A stretch of 32,000 nt of DNA. Source: Pseudodesulfovibrio piezophilus C1TLV30 (GTDB lineage: Bacteria > Desulfobacterota > Desulfovibrionia > Desulfovibrionales > Desulfovibrionaceae). The stretch spans positions 1,500,001-1,532,000 of the forward strand of contig NC_020409.1 of the NCBI RefSeq assembly GCF_000341895.1, given 5' to 3'. The position numbers and the translations under genes are program-made. The notes beneath the pieces were generated by a model. The model was not told the origin of the DNA, did no database searches, and saw only the letters and a program-made list of their open reading frames with translations. Positions 1,717-10,703 of the stretch are shown here, in pieces (the first letter of the stretch is position 1; every line of letters begins with the position of its first letter).

Positions 1717-3053
1717 CCCAGGAACCGATCGTCATCAATGCGCCGCCCAGCAAGTCTCTGTCACACCGCACCCTCATTGCGGCGGCCCTGGCCAAGGGCA
1801 CTTCCGAAATATCATCAATCCTCGTCTCCGATGATATTACACGCACGCGCAATTGTCTCACTGCCTGCGGGGCTGCCATCGAGGAAAAAAACGGCAACCT
1901 CATTGTGACCGGCATGGAAGACGGGCCCAAAGGAGGCAATGCCGACGGCAAGCACAAAGGGGAAAAGCCCCATGAACTTTTCATGCACGAATCCGGTACT
2001 ACCTGCCGTCTGATGACCGCCGTGGCCGCCGCCGGGCATGGGACTTTCCATGTCCACGGAGCACCCCGCATGCATGAACGTCCCATGGGAGAGCTGACCA
2101 CAGCCCTTGTGCGGTTGGGGACCAAATTTGACTATGAAGAGCAGGAAGGATTCCTCCCCTTCGTCATGAAATGCAAAGGGTACACGAAAAAAAATGTCGA
2201 TATAACACTTGAGGAAAGTAGCCAGTACCTCTCGGGCCTCCTCATGGGTGCTCCCATGGCAGACCACGACGTGACTATCACCATAACCGGAAACAAAGCC
2301 GTCTCTTGGCCTTATGTGGCCCTGACCCTGCGAATCATGGAAGATTTCAAGGTCAGCTTCACCGTTGAACAAAAACGTGAAGGGACATGGCAGGAAACCC
2401 CTTGGCGCTGCGTCAAGGGAATCACTCCTGGCACCATTCGATTCGTGGTTAAGCCCACAGGATATGACTGCTCTGATTATCGGGTCGAAGGCGATTGGTC
2501 CAATGCCAGCTATTTTCTCGCCGCAGGAGCTGTGGGGAAACGTCCAGTATTGATCAAAGGACTGGCTGCGGATTCGTTGCAGGGAGATCGTGCGATTCTG
2601 GATATCCTCAGCCAGATGGGAGCATCCATCAAAGTCAATTTTGATGGTATCCTGATAGAGCCGAGTTCCTTGCGCGGCATTCAGGTCGATATGGGACGTT
2701 GCCCGGATCTGGTCCCGACTGTGGCTGTGGCAGCCGCATACGCTTCTTCACCAACGACCATAGAAAACGTGGCCCACCTGCGGATCAAGGAAACCGATCG
2801 TCTCGCAGCCTGCGCCAAGGAAGTGGCTCGTACCGGAACCTCCACTGAAATACGTGAAGATTCTCTGATTATTCGCCCTGGAAGACTGCCCAAGGGGCAC
2901 ACCATCGACTTTACCACATACGGAGACCACCGCATGGCTATGTCCATGTCCATCTTCCAACTGGCGGGAATTGATGTATCACTTGACAATCCGACCTGTG
3001 TCGGCAAATCATTTCCCGGATTCTTCGATGAATGGAACAAGATCATCGGATAA
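1713..3053 (+). CDS. aroA: 3-phosphoshikimate 1-carboxyvinyltransferase (EPSP synthase)
   Basis: N-terminus is PPSKSLSHRTLIAAALA and the length is typical. The ATG overlaps the pheA stop (ATGA at 1713-1716), preceded by AGGAGGAA. Confidence 0.92.
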   Translation: MTQEPIVINAPPSKSLSHRTLIAAALAKGTSEISSILVSDDITRTRNCLTACGAAIEEKNGNLIVTGMEDGPKGGNADGKHKGEKPHELFMHESGTTCRLMTAVAAAGHGTFHVHGAPRMHERPMGELTTALVRLGTKFDYEEQEGFLPFVMKCKGYTKKNVDITLEESSQYLSGLLMGAPMADHDVTITITGNKAVSWPYVALTLRIMEDFKVSFTVEQKREGTWQETPWRCVKGITPGTIRFVVKPTGYDCSDYRVEGDWSNASYFLAAGAVGKRPVLIKGLAADSLQGDRAILDILSQMGASIKVNFDGILIEPSSLRGIQVDMGRCPDLVPTVAVAAAYASSPTTIENVAHLRIKETDRLAACAKEVARTGTSTEIREDSLIIRPGRLPKGHTIDFTTYGDHRMAMSMSIFQLAGIDVSLDNPTCVGKSFPGFFDEWNKIIG

Positions 3054-3087
3054 TGCACATTCCAATGAGAAGGCACTGGACACATCA

Positions 3088-3861
3088 ATGAATATCGTGG
3101 ATTGCAAAAAAATCGCCATAGTGGGCGAAAGCGGCCAGATGGGAAGCGTTTTCAGGAGCGCCTTCACCCGATTGGGCTGCGATGTCGTTCCGTTGAACCG
3201 CCCGTTTTCGGATGCGGAAATCCGCACGGCACTGGATGGATGCGACCTGCTTATCCTGAGTGTTCCAGTCACTGCCATGGCAGGAGTGCTGAAACAGGTC
3301 AAACCGTACCTGACCCCTCCCACCATTCTCTGTGATGTCGGATCGGTCAAGATCCTGCCCATCAAGTCCATGCTCGATGCATACGATGGCCCCATAGTCG
3401 GGACACACCCGCTCTTCGGCCCGGTGATTCCCCAGGGGTTCACTCCCAGAATCGCCGTTGTTCCGGGAAGAAAGAGTGACACCGATGCAGCCACAAGGGT
3501 CTCGGCCCTGATGGAATCATGCGGTTACTCCTGTTTCGATTCCACGGCTGAAGATCACGACCGCGCCATGGCATTTATCCAGGGGCTGAATTACACGTCC
3601 ACTGTCGCTTTTCTTGCTGCGGCCCGAGATGTGAACGGCATAGAAAATTTCATCACGCCATCCTTCAACCGCAGGCTTGACTCAGCCCGGAAGATGCTGA
3701 CCCAGGACACCGAGCTTTTTGAGATCATTTCTGAGGCAAATCCGTTTTTGCAGGAAGTGAACCGCTCATTCATGTCTTACCTCAGCCTTGCCGCTGGTGG
3801 AGATCTCGACCTTTTGGCCAACCGCGCACAGTGGTGGTGGCGTCACGAACAAACATATTAG
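3088..3861 (+). CDS. tyrA: Prephenate dehydrogenase
   Basis: A Rossmann motif KKIAIVGESGQMGS follows ATG 3088 directly, and HPLFGP is typical of PDH. The ORF ends QWWWRHEQTY-TAG (stop 3859-3861). An alternative upstream ATG at 3028 is less likely. Confidence 0.85.
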   Translation: MNIVDCKKIAIVGESGQMGSVFRSAFTRLGCDVVPLNRPFSDAEIRTALDGCDLLILSVPVTAMAGVLKQVKPYLTPPTILCDVGSVKILPIKSMLDAYDGPIVGTHPLFGPVIPQGFTPRIAVVPGRKSDTDAATRVSALMESCGYSCFDSTAEDHDRAMAFIQGLNYTSTVAFLAAARDVNGIENFITPSFNRRLDSARKMLTQDTELFEIISEANPFLQEVNRSFMSYLSLAAGGDLDLLANRAQWWWRHEQTY

Positions 3862-3941
3862 GGGTGCGGTCAAAAGCCGGACGCATTGATTACGACGTAA
3901 CCGAAGCCGCACCCATCCAAAGGGTGTGGCTTCATTTTTTT
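3832..3941 (+). promoter_or_regulatory. Candidate Trp-sensing transcription attenuator (WWW codons, antiterminator/terminator alternative)
   Basis: There are three TGG codons at 3832-3840. GGGTGCGG (3862-3869) is perfectly complementary to CCGCACCC (3907-3914). That segment is also part of the terminator left arm. See findings. Confidence 0.6.
3904..3941 (+). terminator. Rho-independent terminator between tyrA and trpE
   Basis: AAGCCGCACCC (3904-3914), 7-nt loop, GGGTGTGGCTT (3922-3932). The stem is 11 bp with one G:U, followed by CA and T7 (3935-3941). Confidence 0.7.
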
Positions 3942-4068
3942 AGGGAGAACAGTCATGAACGGAACGTGAAAGAAAGCGGAAAATCGGAAAAAAGTAAAAG
4001 GGTGGCAGGTCATACCTCGCCCCTACCATTAAAAAAGCATCAAACATATTTTTGCAAGGATACATTCA

Positions 4069-5526
4069 ATGGAAAAGATTTCACTGAAACAGCATGGGAA
4101 ATGGCTCCCTGCTGATGTGCAAACCACCATCAGTCTCTATATGGGATTGGTTGGCGATCAGCCTGGGATACTGCTCGAATCAGCAGAAGTTGACGGGCGC
4201 CTGGGACGGTACAGTCTTATTGCCTGGGATTATCGGCTGGTGCTTCACCCCGTGGATGGCAAACTTGTCGTTGAAACCACTGACGACCGCCTGGCTCCTC
4301 TCAAGAAACTGGAAGGAATGGAATACCTCTCCGGCGTCAAAAAAGCTATCGAGACCATCTCCATGGAGCAAACCGCCGAAGGGGGCAATAACCGGGATCG
4401 TCTTCCGGGACTCACCCGAGGGCTATACGGTTATTTCGGCTACGGCGTGGCAGGAATGTTCGAACGCAAACTCACGAAATTCTGCAAACCGGCCGATGCC
4501 GAGGCATGCCTCGTTCTCCCCGGCCAACTGGTTCTTTTTGATCACCTGCGCCACTCCTGCTGCTATCTGAGCCTTGATGAAGGGGCCACACCGACTCCTG
4601 CACCGGTCCAGTGGGGTGCGGACCTGACTGCACCCGAGGTCGGGGCACCCACTATCCATCCCGGCAAGGAAGAATACATGGCGGGCGTGGAACGATGCAA
4701 GGAACTCATCGCTGAAGGCGAATGCATTCAGGTGGTCCTTTCCACCCGCTTCACCGTGCCTGTGCCGGACGAACCATTCAAGATATACCGCCGCCTCAGG
4801 CAGGCCAACCCCTCGCCATTCATGTTCTACATGAAATTCCCGGACTGTGCGTCCAAAGGCACAAGTTGCGGAACCACCCTCCTCGGTTCATCCCCTGAAA
4901 TGATGGTCCGCAGTGTGGCAGGCGAACTGGAAGTCCGCCCCATTGCAGGAACTCGCTGGAGGGGGGAGACCGAAGAAGAGGACCGCCGTCTGGCAGAAGA
5001 ACTGCTCGCCGATCCCAAGGAATGCGCCGAGCACGTCATGCTCGTCGATCTGGGACGCAACGATCTTGGCCGCATCTCCAAGCCGGGAACGGTCTCGGTT
5101 GAGCAGTTCATGAACGTCGAACGTTTCTCACACGTGATGCACCTGACCTCCTATGTGGAGGGCACGCTCAAGGAGGAACTCAACGGAATTGACGTTCTTC
5201 AGGCAACCTTCCCGGCCGGAACCCTGTCAGGCGCTCCCAAAATCCGCGCCATGGAGATTATCGCCGAACTGGAACCGCAGGAACGCGGTCCTTACGGAGG
5301 CTGCATCGGATGGATGGGGCTGGATGACGGAGAGGTCAGTTTGGATACAGGTATCACTATCCGCTCCATGTGGATTCGTGATGGTCTGTGCCATTGGCAG
5401 GCTGGAGCCGGAATCGTGTATGATTCCAACGCCGAATCAGAGTGGAACGAGTGCCAAAACAAGGCGCGCGTGCTTTTGGAAGTCATTTCCGGCAAGGGAG
5501 GCACTGATGTTTTTGCTGATCGATAA
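4069..5526 (+). CDS. trpE: Anthranilate synthase component I
   Basis: LLESAE feedback-site motif near the N-terminus, and chorismate-binding core GTRWRGE ... LSGAPKIRAMEII ... RGPYGG. AAGGA lies 7 nt upstream of the ATG. Confidence 0.95.
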   Translation: MEKISLKQHGKWLPADVQTTISLYMGLVGDQPGILLESAEVDGRLGRYSLIAWDYRLVLHPVDGKLVVETTDDRLAPLKKLEGMEYLSGVKKAIETISMEQTAEGGNNRDRLPGLTRGLYGYFGYGVAGMFERKLTKFCKPADAEACLVLPGQLVLFDHLRHSCCYLSLDEGATPTPAPVQWGADLTAPEVGAPTIHPGKEEYMAGVERCKELIAEGECIQVVLSTRFTVPVPDEPFKIYRRLRQANPSPFMFYMKFPDCASKGTSCGTTLLGSSPEMMVRSVAGELEVRPIAGTRWRGETEEEDRRLAEELLADPKECAEHVMLVDLGRNDLGRISKPGTVSVEQFMNVERFSHVMHLTSYVEGTLKEELNGIDVLQATFPAGTLSGAPKIRAMEIIAELEPQERGPYGGCIGWMGLDDGEVSLDTGITIRSMWIRDGLCHWQAGAGIVYDSNAESEWNECQNKARVLLEVISGKGGTDVFADR

Positions 5527-9773: not shown

Positions 9774-10535
9774 ATGAATCCCATGCAAATAAAAATAGAC
9801 GAGGCTGTGACCAAAGGGTCCGTGGGCCTCATCCCATTTCTTCCGGCTGGTTTCCCCAACAGGGAACAGTTCTGGAAGGAACTTGAAGAATTGGACGCAG
9901 CAGGCGCATCCATCATTGAAATAGGCATGCCCTTTTCCGACCCGGTAGCCGATGGCCCAGTGGTGGAAAAAGCATCCCTCCAATGCCTGGAGGACGGCAT
10001 CGACCTAACTTGGATATTCGAAGGCCTCAAGAAGCGCAAAGGCTCATTCAATGCGGCATTGCTGCTCATGGGGTATCTCAACCCGGTCTACCAATACGGA
10101 GTGGAGCAATTCGGCGCGGACTGTGAGGCCGCTGGGGTATCAGGACTGATTATCGCTGACTTACCCTACGAAGAAGCCGATTTTGTCAAGCAAGCCATCG
10201 AATCCCACGGAGTGGCTCTGGTCCCGCTTATCGGATTGAATACAAGCCGGGAACGCATGAAACTCTATGCCAAGGGTGCTACTGGATTTTGCTATTTTGT
10301 CTCGGTCCTCGGCACCACTGGTCAACGGGAATCCCTGCCTGCCCGTATTAAGGAAAAACTGACCGAAGCCCGCGAAATATTCACGGTCCCCATTGCCTTG
10401 GGTTTTGGGATCAAACACCCTGATCAACTCTCCCAATTTGAAGGGCTTCTGGACGCGGCGGTTTTCGGTTCAGCGCTTATCAGCCACATAGAAAGCGGCA
10501 AATCGAGTCAGGAGTTCATGGCTCCCTGGACTTGA
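9774..10535 (+). CDS. trpA: Tryptophan synthase alpha chain
   Basis: Motifs IPFLPAGFP, IEIGMPFSDPVADGPV and GFGI. AAGGGG SD is upstream. Confidence 0.95.
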   Translation: MNPMQIKIDEAVTKGSVGLIPFLPAGFPNREQFWKELEELDAAGASIIEIGMPFSDPVADGPVVEKASLQCLEDGIDLTWIFEGLKKRKGSFNAALLLMGYLNPVYQYGVEQFGADCEAAGVSGLIIADLPYEEADFVKQAIESHGVALVPLIGLNTSRERMKLYAKGATGFCYFVSVLGTTGQRESLPARIKEKLTEAREIFTVPIALGFGIKHPDQLSQFEGLLDAAVFGSALISHIESGKSSQEFMAPWT

Positions 10536-10548
10536 ATCAAACATGAAA

Positions 10549-10584
10549 GCATAAAAAAGCCCGGTTTTCCGGGCTTTTTTATGC
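10549..10584. terminator. Bidirectional rho-independent terminator closing the aro/trp operon
   Basis: Perfect palindrome GCATAAAAAAGCCCGG-tttt-CCGGGCTTTTTTATGC, with a GC core flanked by A6/T6. Confidence 0.88.
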
Positions 10585-10703
10585 TTATTCACTGAGAATA
10601 TCCTGTGCGGTAGAGGAATAAAATACCCACGTGGTCAGCATAGGCACTCTCTGTCTGTGCCAAGGACATTGCTTGTACACGCAAATTCATCTAGTTTTAC
10701 CGG

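What the first reader, a model, noticed from the sequence alone, without database searches (positions are those of the whole stretch)
3829..3941. Trp attenuator that appears to use the C-terminal tail of tyrA as its leader peptide
The sequence shows several things directly. The tyrA reading frame ends QWWWRHEQTY-TAG, with three consecutive TGG codons at 3832-3840, six codons before the stop (3859-3861). Directly after the stop, GGGTGCGG (3862-3869) is a perfect complement of CCGCACCC (3907-3914). That same CCGCACCC is the core of the left arm of a terminator hairpin: AAGCCGCACCC 3904-3914, 7-nt loop, GGGTGTGGCTT 3922-3932, then T7 at 3935-3941. The two pairings are therefore mutually exclusive, and trpE starts 128 nt further on. 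What follows is inference from ribosome footprint geometry. A ribosome stalled on the TGG codons would end near 3852 and leave 3862-3869 free to form the antiterminator. A ribosome reaching the stop would cover 3862-3869 and let the terminator form. This matches the logic of the E. coli trpL attenuator, whose leader also ends WWRTS-stop. Here, however, the sensed codons belong to a full-length enzyme gene inside a supraoperon, so Trp supply could uncouple trpEGDCFBA from the upstream aro/phe/tyr genes. Three adjacent codons for a rare amino acid at exactly this place is unlikely to be chance. I cannot say from memory whether this arrangement has been described for this lineage.
Basis: partly seen in the sequence, partly recalled or inferred. 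Interest (0 to 1): 0.8.

Follow-up and report, generated by a model that had tools for sequence, protein, structure and literature searches.

The report
Trp attenuator using tyrA's own tail
The last codons of the tyrosine-pathway enzyme gene tyrA (three tryptophan codons in a row) appear to act as the tryptophan-sensing "leader peptide" of a terminator/antiterminator switch in front of the tryptophan genes, an arrangement kept across the sulfate-reducing order Desulfovibrionales and one I could not find described.

Summary
The window is Pseudodesulfovibrio piezophilus, with gene order aroB'-pheA-aroA-tyrA | trpEGDCFBA. tyrA ends QWWWRHEQTY-TAG. GGGTGCGGT (3862-3870) pairs with the 5' arm of a 12-bp terminator (3903-3933, followed by T7).

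Of 79 informative tyrA loci (the window plus 80 fetched, two uninformative), 58 carry a strong terminator after tyrA, and all 58 keep WWW. In 55 of 59 hairpin-bearing loci tested, a segment complementary to the terminator's 5' arm beats shuffled controls. The pairing is kept through many different sequences (GGGGTGCGG, GGGACGCGG, GGGAGAA, GGGAGGGGTGC and others).

That segment always starts 11-23 nt after the last TGG, while the stop codon sits anywhere from 26 nt before to 11 nt after it. The Trp codons, not the stop, are therefore the fixed reference point. The eight loci with only xWW all lack the terminator. TyrA here has no other Trp.

Caveats:
- One W is ancestral in the enzyme family.
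- Some lineages keep WWW without a terminator or without trpE downstream.
- Nothing here is experimental, apart from a published RNA-seq hint.

Verdict: a new variant of leader-peptide attenuation. A conserved small ORF with an in-frame TGA lies just downstream and is unexplained.

The parts
3088..3861 (+). tyrA (prephenate dehydrogenase, 257 aa). Here it doubles as the translated 'leader' ORF.
   Evidence: Pfam PDH_N. 100% identical to the annotated P. piezophilus prephenate dehydrogenase of 257 aa. The only three Trp residues in the protein are the C-terminal run.
3832..3840 (+). Three consecutive Trp codons (W249-W251), the proposed ribosome stall site that reports charged tRNA-Trp.
   Evidence: Read. 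WWW is present in 119/120 close homologues (the one exception, P0038, reads through into unrelated sequence) and in all 58 terminator-bearing loci. In the AlphaFold model it sits at the end of the last helix (H240-252), and the tail 255-257 has pLDDT below 50.
3859..3861 (+). tyrA stop codon (TAG). A ribosome terminating here would mask the antiterminator strand.
   Evidence: Footprint model: covStop = 1.00 for the window.
3862..3870 (+). Antiterminator 5' strand, GGGTGCGGT.
   Evidence: It pairs with 3906-3914 and is the minimum free energy structure of 3853-3921 at -20.9 kcal/mol. Covariation.
3878..3903 (+). Weak spacer hairpin enclosed by the antiterminator helix. It may nucleate the helix or pause the polymerase. 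Its sequence is not conserved between lineages.
   Evidence: Fold. Other clades have a different hairpin, or only 10-20 nt, at this place.
3903..3914 (+). Terminator 5' arm, shared by the two mutually exclusive helices.
3922..3933 (+). Terminator 3' arm.
3935..3941 (+). T7 tract of the intrinsic terminator.
3955..4032 (+). Conserved 25-codon ORF with an in-frame TGA at codon 5 (3967-3969) and a Shine-Dalgarno sequence AGGGAG (3942-3947): M-N-G-T-[TGA]-KKAENRKKVKGWQVIPRPYH-TAA. Function unknown. It may be a second control layer for trpE.
   Evidence: Found in the window, in 8 Pseudodesulfovibrio genome loci and in 8 of the 9 metagenome contigs (the ninth is cut off upstream of the TGA), always between the terminator and trpE. 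Variable sites by codon position are 5/5/18 downstream of the TGA.
4069..5526 (+). trpE, first gene of trpEGDCFBA and the regulated target.
   Evidence: Pfam Anth_synt_I_N plus Chorismate_bind.

Best explanation
This is a ribosome-mediated, leader-peptide-type transcription attenuator that senses tryptophan. It sits inside the aro-phe-tyr-trp supraoperon. Its 'leader peptide' is the C-terminal end of the full-length enzyme TyrA.

Proposed mechanism:
- RNA polymerase leaves tyrA and transcribes a G-rich segment (3862-3870), then a spacer, then the terminator.
- When charged tRNA-Trp is plentiful, the lead ribosome runs through TGG-TGG-TGG to the stop codon. Its footprint covers the G-rich segment while the terminator 5' arm emerges. 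The 5' arm can then pair only with the 3' arm, and transcription ends at the T-tract before trpE.
- When charged tRNA-Trp is scarce, the ribosome stalls on the Trp codons. Its leading edge stops about 10 nt short of the G-rich segment. That segment pairs with the terminator 5' arm to form the antiterminator, and the polymerase reads on into trpEGDCFBA.

Shown by computation: the terminator; the mutually exclusive helix and its covariation; the constant spacing from the Trp codons; and the association between WWW and the terminator.

Inferred: the stalling, the timing of ribosome against polymerase, and the response to Trp.

A further inference: stalling also leaves TyrA chains unfinished, so Trp shortage would lower the competing tyrosine branch while raising trp expression.
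For: Anatomy:
- A 12-bp terminator plus T7, and a perfect 8-9 bp alternative helix that starts directly after the stop.
- Constrained folds switch between the two structures exactly as the model requires.

Conservation:
- 58 of 79 informative loci (the window plus 80 fetched loci spanning Desulfovibrionaceae, Desulfomicrobium and Desulfohalobiaceae, 73-44% TyrA identity) have a terminator of -16 to -30 kcal/mol after tyrA and before trpE.
- 55 of 59 hairpin-bearing loci tested have a better antiterminator duplex than 95% of shuffles.
- The real duplex averages -23.0 kcal/mol, against -12 to -15 for natural control segments, and is stronger in 56-58 of 58 loci.

Covariation:
- 98.9% of cells are paired, with double changes at two pairs.
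- L004 (GGGATGCGG/CCGCATCCC) and metagenome contigs L086, L090 and L092 (GGGTACGG/CCGTACCC/GGGTACGG) show further independent compensations.
- There are 40 distinct core helices.
- RNAalifold picks the antiterminator unprompted.

Geometry:
- The antiterminator core begins 11-23 nt after the last TGG in all 58 loci, whereas the stop is 2-14 codons after it.
- In Salidesulfovibrio, Desulfomicrobium, Desulfohalobiaceae and Halodesulfovibrio the strand lies inside the ORF and explains their Gly-rich tails (EGCVR, RGGA, KGGGT, AGGPAS).

Codon evidence:
- WWW is present in 58/58 terminator-bearing loci. All 8 xWW loci, from at least 4 lineages, lack a terminator (Fisher p = 8e-6, uncorrected for phylogeny).
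- Distant TyrA relatives have x-W-[YF] at this spot.
- TyrA in this clade has essentially no other Trp: 97% of 119 homologues have none, against about 2 per protein in distant TyrA.

Other sensors look unlikely:
- No Rfam family matches.
- There are no TRAP-type triplet repeats.
- In Maridesulfovibrio the spacer is only 10-20 nt.

Experimental hint: in 'Desulfovibrio' hydrothermalis RNA-seq, trpE, trpG and trpD fell about 6-fold at 10 vs 0.1 MPa while aroA', aroB', pheA, aroA and tyrA of the same cluster did not (PMC4162548). Expression can therefore be uncoupled exactly at this junction.
Against: - There is no direct measurement of termination, read-through or stalling in any of these organisms.
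- WWW is not exclusive to attenuator-bearing loci. Thirteen loci keep WWW without a recognisable terminator, one of them with tyrA and trpE overlapping (L018).
- In host-associated Desulfovibrionaceae, tyrA keeps WWW although trpE is no longer downstream (L082, L083). W250 is invariant in the wider enzyme family. Part of the run's conservation could therefore be structural or inherited.
- At equilibrium the terminator is the more stable fold, so the switch must be kinetic.
- No conserved pause or 'anti-antiterminator' hairpin equivalent to E. coli 1:2 was found. An untranslated transcript would therefore default to read-through, which differs from trpL.
- Three loci fit the stop-codon masking rule poorly: L056 0.15, L025 0.22 and L021 0.50 of the strand covered.
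- The sequences are related, so the counts overstate the number of independent events.
Confidence: 0.78

Rival explanations
1. A general translation-coupling attenuator that is not specific to Trp. The switch would report only how closely the ribosome translating tyrA follows the polymerase (overall translation rate, or any starvation). WWW would be an inherited structural feature of this TyrA clade.
For: - W250 is invariant and position 251 is aromatic in distant TyrA.
- WWW survives in loci with no terminator or no trpE downstream.
- A precedent exists for a full-length ORF governing a downstream attenuator through coupling: E. coli rph-pyrE (own knowledge; the pyrE attenuator in the rph-pyrE operon is mentioned in PMC3203608).
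Against: - The conserved distance is from the Trp codons (11-23 nt), not from the stop codon (-26 to +11 nt).
- All 58 terminator-bearing loci keep all three TGG, and every xWW variant lacks the terminator.
- Trp is otherwise almost absent from these TyrA proteins.
- The regulated genes are the Trp pathway.
Confidence: 0.1
2. A constitutive, partially leaky operon-internal terminator that merely sets the ratio of aro/phe/tyr to trp transcripts. The upstream complementary segment would have no regulatory role.
For: At equilibrium the terminator is the minimum free energy fold of the full region. No experimental evidence of switching exists.
Against: The complementary segment is maintained by compensatory changes through many sequence variants, at a fixed distance from the Trp codons. 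That is hard to explain without selection on the alternative helix.
Confidence: 0.05
3. The terminator/antiterminator choice is set by a trans-acting factor or ligand (a TRAP-like protein, uncharged tRNA as in a T-box, or a small-molecule aptamer) rather than by the ribosome.
For: Gram-positive bacteria control trp operons inside aro supraoperons in this way (B. subtilis TRAP; T-boxes; own knowledge). The Pseudodesulfovibrio spacer is about 35 nt and folds weakly.
Against: - No Rfam hit, even at E <= 10.
- No (G/U)AG repeat array.
- The spacer sequence is not conserved between clades and shrinks to 10-20 nt in Maridesulfovibrio.
- In several families the antiterminator strand is inside the translated ORF, where ribosomes necessarily govern its availability.
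Confidence: 0.04

Closest known systems
E. coli trpL-type leader-peptide attenuator (classical ribosome-mediated attenuation of trp, his, phe, thr, leu and ilv operons)
   Same: - Tandem codons for the cognate amino acid lie a few codons before a stop.
- An antiterminator strand starts roughly 15 nt past those codons.
- The mutually exclusive terminator hairpin plus U-tract lies just upstream of trpE.
- The terminator is the more stable structure, so control is kinetic.
- The peptide context is even similar (WWR...).
The trpL details are from own knowledge.
   Different: - There is no dedicated short leader ORF with its own start. The sensed codons are residues 249-251 of a 257-aa enzyme, inside a longer operon.
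- Three Trp codons rather than two.
- No conserved 1:2 (pause / anti-antiterminator) hairpin, so the default without a ribosome is read-through.
- No similarity to the Rfam leader models.
E. coli rph-pyrE attenuation (own knowledge; the pyrE attenuator in the rph-pyrE operon is mentioned in PMC3203608)
   Same: The ribosome translating the end of a full-length upstream enzyme gene decides whether an intercistronic terminator stops transcription into the downstream biosynthetic gene.
   Different: - In rph-pyrE the ribosome near the stop codon prevents the terminator itself, and the signal is UTP-dependent polymerase pausing. No codon-specific stalling and no antiterminator helix are involved.
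- Here the ribosome at the stop masks an antiterminator, which is the opposite sign, and the signal is Trp-codon stalling.
WWW motif of Chlamydia trachomatis YtgCR (PMC7755916)
   Same: A triple-Trp run inside a functional protein-coding gene is used as a sensor of Trp supply that changes transcription downstream and ultimately trp gene expression.
   Different: In Chlamydia, stalling promotes termination downstream of the motif, which lowers the YtgR repressor and acts indirectly on the trpBA promoter. Here stalling is proposed to prevent termination directly in front of trpE, through a defined antiterminator.
Bacillus subtilis aro supraoperon with the TRAP-controlled trp leader (own knowledge)
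   Same: An internal attenuator lets Trp supply uncouple trpEDCFBA from upstream aromatic-pathway genes transcribed from the same promoter.
   Different: The sensor there is the TRAP protein binding (G/U)AG repeats. No such repeats occur here, and the sensor is proposed to be the ribosome.

Membership tests
Leader-peptide (ribosome-mediated) transcription attenuator, trpL type | Intrinsic terminator (GC-rich hairpin plus U-tract) immediately upstream of the regulated biosynthetic genes | tested here: met
   3903-3933 plus T7 at 3935-3941, -22.4 kcal/mol. Present in 58 of 79 informative loci.
Leader-peptide (ribosome-mediated) transcription attenuator, trpL type | Mutually exclusive antiterminator helix that uses the terminator 5' arm | tested here: met
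   3862-3870:3906-3914. 98.9% of cells paired, with compensatory changes. Predicted independently by RNAalifold. Beats shuffled and natural controls.
Leader-peptide (ribosome-mediated) transcription attenuator, trpL type | Tandem codons of the cognate amino acid in a translated ORF, placed so that a stalled ribosome frees the antiterminator strand and a terminating ribosome masks it | tested here: met
   TGG x3 at 3832-3840. The strand starts 11-23 nt after the last TGG in 58/58 loci. Modelled coverage is 0% at the stall and 100% (median) at the stop.
Leader-peptide (ribosome-mediated) transcription attenuator, trpL type | A short dedicated leader ORF (about 14-30 codons) with its own ribosome-binding site and no other function | tested here: not met
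   The ORF is the 257-aa prephenate dehydrogenase. No separate short W-containing ORF ends here.
Leader-peptide (ribosome-mediated) transcription attenuator, trpL type | Upstream pause / anti-antiterminator hairpin (1:2) that synchronises ribosome and polymerase and gives termination when the leader is not translated | tested here: inconclusive
   In the window, the minimum free energy fold pairs 3836-3844 with 3894-3902, and a local hairpin can sequester the antiterminator strand. Neither is conserved in other clades.
Leader-peptide (ribosome-mediated) transcription attenuator, trpL type | Read-through increases when charged tRNA-Trp is limiting | not testable with these tools
   Only an indirect hint exists: trpEGD was regulated separately from the upstream genes in D. 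hydrothermalis RNA-seq (PMC4162548).
Rfam amino-acid leader / T-box families | Match to the curated covariance model | tested here: not met
   No hit at gathering score in the window. No relevant hit at E <= 10 in 3700-4200.
TRAP-regulated trp leader | Array of (G/U)AG triplets spaced by 2-3 nt that overlaps the antiterminator | tested here: not met
   A regex scan of 3801-4070 found none.
rph-pyrE type coupling attenuator | A ribosome at the end of the upstream full-length ORF directly prevents the terminator hairpin. There are no regulatory codons and no antiterminator. | tested here: not met
   The terminator starts 41 nt after the stop, outside a terminating ribosome's footprint. A conserved antiterminator and a W-run are present.

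The most novel reading that the evidence does not exclude
Across a whole bacterial order, one stretch of sequence would serve three purposes at once: the C-terminal helix end and tail of an enzyme, a Trp-sensing leader peptide, and (in several families) one strand of an antiterminator helix. RNA pairing would then have shaped the protein's Gly-rich tail. Stalling would both switch on trp genes and abort synthesis of the competing tyrosine-branch enzyme. In Pseudodesulfovibrio a second layer would follow: a conserved 25-codon ORF that is read across, or recoded at, an in-frame UGA just ahead of trpE.
Probability: 0.4. Interest if true: 0.85.

Novelty: new variant of a known kind. Interest (0 to 1): 0.72.

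Why it matters
Leader-peptide attenuation is a textbook mechanism, but in every classical case the sensor is a tiny dedicated ORF at the start of an operon. Here the sensor seems to be written into the end of a working enzyme gene in the middle of a supraoperon.

If the mechanism holds:
- It shows that attenuators can evolve by recruiting an existing residue (the ancestral W-[YF]) and the 3' end of a gene.
- It shows that RNA-structure constraints can dictate a protein's C-terminal tail.
- It shows that annotation pipelines which look for short leader ORFs will miss this class.
- It gives a concrete, easily testable account of how sulfate reducers uncouple Trp synthesis from Phe/Tyr synthesis. 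It could also explain published transcriptome patterns such as trpEGD-only changes in D. hydrothermalis.
- It provides a natural system for studying ribosome-polymerase coupling at the end of a long ORF.

Tried and rejected
- **Rfam.** Searched at gathering score (whole window) and at E <= 10 (3700-4200). There was no leader, T-box or riboswitch match, only chance hits.
- **TRAP-type repeats.** None found.
- **Separate promoter for trpE.** The sigma-70 scan found no promoter in 3862-4068. This is weak evidence, since Desulfovibrionales promoters may differ.
- **Plasmid collection.** A megablast of 3000-5000 found nothing and was uninformative.
- **Solved structures.** TyrA structures in the PDB align only to residue 217, so they say nothing about the WWW position. 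An AlphaFold model was used instead.
- **Literature.** Nine full-text searches found no description of this junction. Song et al. 2005 (PMC1173090) lists a predicted attenuator only in front of aroA' of the D. vulgaris supraoperon. Rodionov et al. 2004 (PMC545781) does not treat tryptophan. Two reviews I wanted (Merino/Jensen/Yanofsky 2008; Xie et al. 2003) are not held under the PMC ids I guessed from memory, so prior description cannot be excluded.
- **D. vulgaris Hildenborough.** I tried to reach it through a second protein search. That search returned mostly unnamed gut Desulfovibrionaceae instead.
- **First terminator finder.** My first version used too coarse a set of hairpin lengths and missed most terminators. 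It was replaced.
- **Small TGA-containing ORF.** I looked for a SECIS-like conserved hairpin and found none. I looked for an in-frame start after the TGA and found none. I looked for TGA/TGG interchange in relatives and found none among the 17 copies that include the codon.
- **RNAalifold pairing of the W codons with the terminator 3' arm.** I regard it as a G-U-rich artefact.
Full report
**1. What is there**

The window comes from Pseudodesulfovibrio piezophilus. The TyrA protein encoded at 3088-3861 is 100% identical to the annotated prephenate dehydrogenase of that species.

Pfam assigns the neighbours as 3-dehydroquinate synthase II (aroB'), chorismate mutase-prephenate dehydratase (pheA), EPSP synthase (aroA) and prephenate dehydrogenase (tyrA). 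Then come trpE, trpG, trpD, trpC, trpF and trpB, followed by a 253-aa ORF (9774-10535) at the position expected for trpA, which I did not scan. This is the aromatic supraoperon already noted for Desulfovibrio vulgaris by Song et al. 2005 (PMC1173090).

Every coordinate in the finding is right:
- TGG x3 at 3832-3840 and TAG at 3859-3861.
- GGGTGCGG at 3862-3869, complementary to CCGCACCC at 3907-3914.
- A 12-bp hairpin at 3903-3933 with a 7-nt loop, and T7 at 3935-3941.
- The trpE ATG at 4069.

The pattern scan ranks this hairpin among the two strong terminators in the first 12 kb. TGGTGGTGG occurs once in the 32-kb window, and the three Trp residues are the only ones in TyrA.

**2. Folding**

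- The whole region folds into the terminator plus an upstream hairpin (-43.3 kcal/mol, z = -2.95).
- I also folded the RNA that would be free when a ribosome sits on the Trp codons and the polymerase has not yet made the 3' arm (3853-3921). Its minimum free energy structure is the antiterminator 3862-3870:3906-3914 (-20.9 kcal/mol).
- With a ribosome on the stop codon (3873-3945 free), the terminator forms.
- The switch is therefore kinetic, as in E. coli trpL (own knowledge), and not a matter of equilibrium stability.

**3. Comparative test**

A genome scan with a TyrA alignment returned 80 loci across Desulfovibrionales, at 73-44% identity. They include Pseudodesulfovibrio, Salidesulfovibrio, Humidesulfovibrio, Desulfocurvus, Maridesulfovibrio, Halodesulfovibrio, Desulfobaculum, Desulfomicrobium and Desulfohalobiaceae. 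trpE follows tyrA in nearly all of them.

With the window, 79 loci are informative; two are cut by contig ends. Of these, 58 carry a hairpin of -16 to -30 kcal/mol followed by a T-run between tyrA and trpE.

I then looked for the best duplex between the terminator 5' arm (plus loop) and the stretch running from the W-run to the terminator:
- It beats 95% of shuffles in 55 of 59 hairpin-bearing loci tested.
- It averages -23.0 kcal/mol, against -12 to -15 for equally long natural control segments. It is the stronger in 57/58, 58/58 and 56/58 comparisons.

The pairing is kept while the sequence changes:
- GGGGTGCGG/CCGCACCCC in Pseudodesulfovibrio.
- GGGATGCGG/CCGCATCCC in L004.
- GGGTACGG/CCGTACCC in metagenome contigs L086, L090 and L092, with the 3' arm changed to match.
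- GGGACGCGGC/GCCGCGTCCC in Humidesulfovibrio and Desulfocurvus.
- GGGAGAA-TGC/GC-TTCTCCC in Maridesulfovibrio.
- GGGAGGGGTGC/GCATCCCTCCC in Salidesulfovibrio brasiliensis.
- Further variants elsewhere, 40 distinct core helices in all.

On a 31-sequence alignment the 9-bp antiterminator is paired in 98.9% of cells, against 37-49% when slid, with double changes at two pairs. The terminator is paired in 87%. RNAalifold, given no hint, returns the antiterminator helix as the consensus structure.

**4. Geometry**

This is the most telling result.
- The core of the antiterminator strand begins 11-23 nt (median 16) after the last TGG in all 58 loci.
- The stop codon lies anywhere from 2 to 14 codons after the W-run, so the strand starts between 26 nt before and 11 nt after the stop.
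- In the long-tailed lineages the strand lies inside the ORF. Its G-rich sequence explains their conserved Gly-rich tails (..EGCVR, ..RGGA, ..KGGGT, ..AGGPAS).

I used a simple footprint of 15 nt upstream to 12 nt downstream of the first A-site nucleotide. Under it, a ribosome stalled on any of the three Trp codons covers none of the strand (maximum 21%). A ribosome on the stop codon covers all of it in the median case. The exceptions are L056, L025 and L021.

The Trp codons, not the stop, are thus the conserved reference point. That is what a Trp-codon sensor predicts and what a pure coupling device does not.

**5. Is WWW regulatory or structural?**

Both, apparently.
- In the wider TyrA subfamily (33-45% identity) the motif is A-x-x-W-[Y/F]. 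W250 is invariant, position 251 is aromatic and position 249 is variable.
- In the AlphaFold model the run closes the last helix, and the last three residues (255-257) are modelled with very low confidence.
- The lineage therefore seems to have turned an ancestral x-W-Y into W-W-W.
- All 58 terminator-bearing loci keep WWW. The eight loci with only two W (KWW, QWW, TWW/AWW, WWL; at least four lineages) all lack a terminator. In them tyrA overlaps trpE, or the spacer is 34-36 nt, or no hairpin with a T-run was found (Fisher p = 8e-6, not corrected for relatedness).
- TyrA of this clade is almost free of other Trp. 97% of 119 homologues have none upstream of the run, against about two per protein in distant TyrA. 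The trend also holds between loci with and without the terminator (0.16 vs 0.50).

The reverse implication fails, however.
- Thirteen loci keep WWW without a recognisable terminator.
- In host-associated Desulfovibrionaceae, 108 of 119 TyrA tails keep WWW. Yet in two loci I fetched, tyrA is followed by unrelated genes rather than trpE (L082, L083).
- WWW may persist as a relic or because it has become structurally acceptable. This lowers, but does not remove, the weight of the codon argument.

**6. Other sensors**

- No Rfam family matches, even at permissive thresholds.
- There is no TRAP-like triplet array.
- The spacer between the two strands is not conserved between clades and is only 10-20 nt in Maridesulfovibrio. 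That leaves no room for an aptamer or a tRNA-binding element.
- Where the strand lies inside the ORF, ribosomes must control its availability.

**7. Experimental hint**

In 'Desulfovibrio' (now Maridesulfovibrio) hydrothermalis, a genus in which I find the element, RNA-seq showed trpE, trpG and trpD down about 6-fold at 10 vs 0.1 MPa. The upstream aro, pheA, aroA and tyrA genes of the same cluster changed only at 26 MPa (PMC4162548). Expression can therefore be uncoupled at exactly this junction. The cause was not examined in that paper.

**8. Comparison with known systems**

- The logic is that of trpL-type attenuation. The defining short dedicated leader ORF is absent, and no conserved 1:2 hairpin exists.
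- The use of a full-length upstream enzyme gene recalls rph-pyrE. There, however, the ribosome blocks the terminator itself and no codon is sensed.
- The closest precedent for a WWW run inside a working protein acting as a Trp sensor is Chlamydia YtgCR (PMC7755916), where stalling causes rather than prevents termination.
- The physiological role, uncoupling trp genes from upstream aromatic genes in one transcript, parallels the TRAP-controlled leader in the B. subtilis aro supraoperon (own knowledge).
- I found no description of the tyrA-trpE attenuator in nine full-text searches. Song et al. list only an attenuator in front of the first gene of the D. vulgaris supraoperon. Two relevant reviews are not in the library under the ids I tried, so prior mention cannot be ruled out.

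**9. Side finding**

In Pseudodesulfovibrio, a well-placed Shine-Dalgarno sequence (3942-3947) lies between the terminator and trpE. It precedes a 25-codon ORF (3955-4032): M-N-G-T-TGA-KKAENRKKVKGWQVIPRPYH-TAA.
- The same ORF, with the in-frame TGA at codon 5, occurs in eight genome loci and in eight of the nine metagenome contigs found (the ninth is cut off upstream of the TGA), always in this position.
- Downstream of the TGA, variable sites fall 5/5/18 on codon positions 1/2/3, which is the signature of translation in that frame.
- There is no in-frame start after the TGA and no conserved hairpin that could be a SECIS. The TGA is never replaced by a sense codon.
- I cannot explain it. Read-through, recoding or an arrest peptide affecting trpE translation are all possible.

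**10. Verdict**

The mechanism remains untested experimentally. It is a new variant of a known kind of regulation, and its interest is fairly high.

Noticed in passing
window 3942-4032 (+); also L003, L006-L012, L085-L093: A conserved 25-codon ORF with a good Shine-Dalgarno sequence and an in-frame TGA at codon 5 (M-x-x-T-TGA-[KR]xxEN[RQH]KKxKGW[QE]VIPRPY[HN]-TAA). It always lies between the tyrA-trpE terminator and trpE. Third-position variation (5/5/18) shows coding selection downstream of the TGA. There is no SECIS-like hairpin, no in-frame start after the TGA, and the TGA is never a sense codon. L001, L004 and L005 keep only M-x-D-T-TGA-K.
   Followed up: partly
window 3088-3861 (tyrA) and homologues P0001-P0120: TyrA has no tryptophan other than the C-terminal WWW. 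97% of 119 close homologues likewise have none upstream of the run, whereas distant TyrA proteins average about two. This is consistent with selection against premature stalling, but the sequences are related.
   Followed up: partly
L013, L049, L052, L056, L062, L064-L068, L072-L077, L080 (tyrA 3' ends): In several families the antiterminator strand lies inside the tyrA ORF. Its G-rich sequence is read as conserved Gly-rich tails (EGCVR, RGGA, KGGGT, DGGGT, AGGPAS). This looks like a case of RNA pairing shaping a protein's C-terminus.
   Followed up: partly
L082:2001-3110 and L083:2001-3100 (host-associated Desulfovibrionaceae): tyrA keeps WWW, but the next gene is not trpE (an AbrB-family gene, or an MFS transporter on the other strand). 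L082 has an ordinary terminator starting 5 nt after the stop. L084 has lost both WWW (RRWLEKH) and the trpE linkage.
   Followed up: partly
L014, L018, L031, L038, L040, L043, L058, L059, L074 (GC-rich Desulfovibrionaceae MAGs): These loci have WWW and tyrA-trpE adjacency but no hairpin with a T-run in the spacer. In L018 the two genes overlap. The attenuator was either lost or replaced by something my terminator rule does not see.
   Followed up: no
window 10547-10586: An 18-bp palindromic hairpin flanked by A-runs and T-runs on both strands lies just after the 253-aa ORF (9774-10535) that sits in the trpA position. It is a likely bidirectional terminator closing the supraoperon.
   Followed up: no
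PMC4162548, Table 1 (D. hydrothermalis): Published RNA-seq shows trpE, trpG and trpD changing at 10 vs 0.1 MPa, while the upstream aro/pheA/aroA/tyrA genes of the same cluster change only at 26 MPa. The authors did not link this to an internal attenuator.
   Followed up: partly
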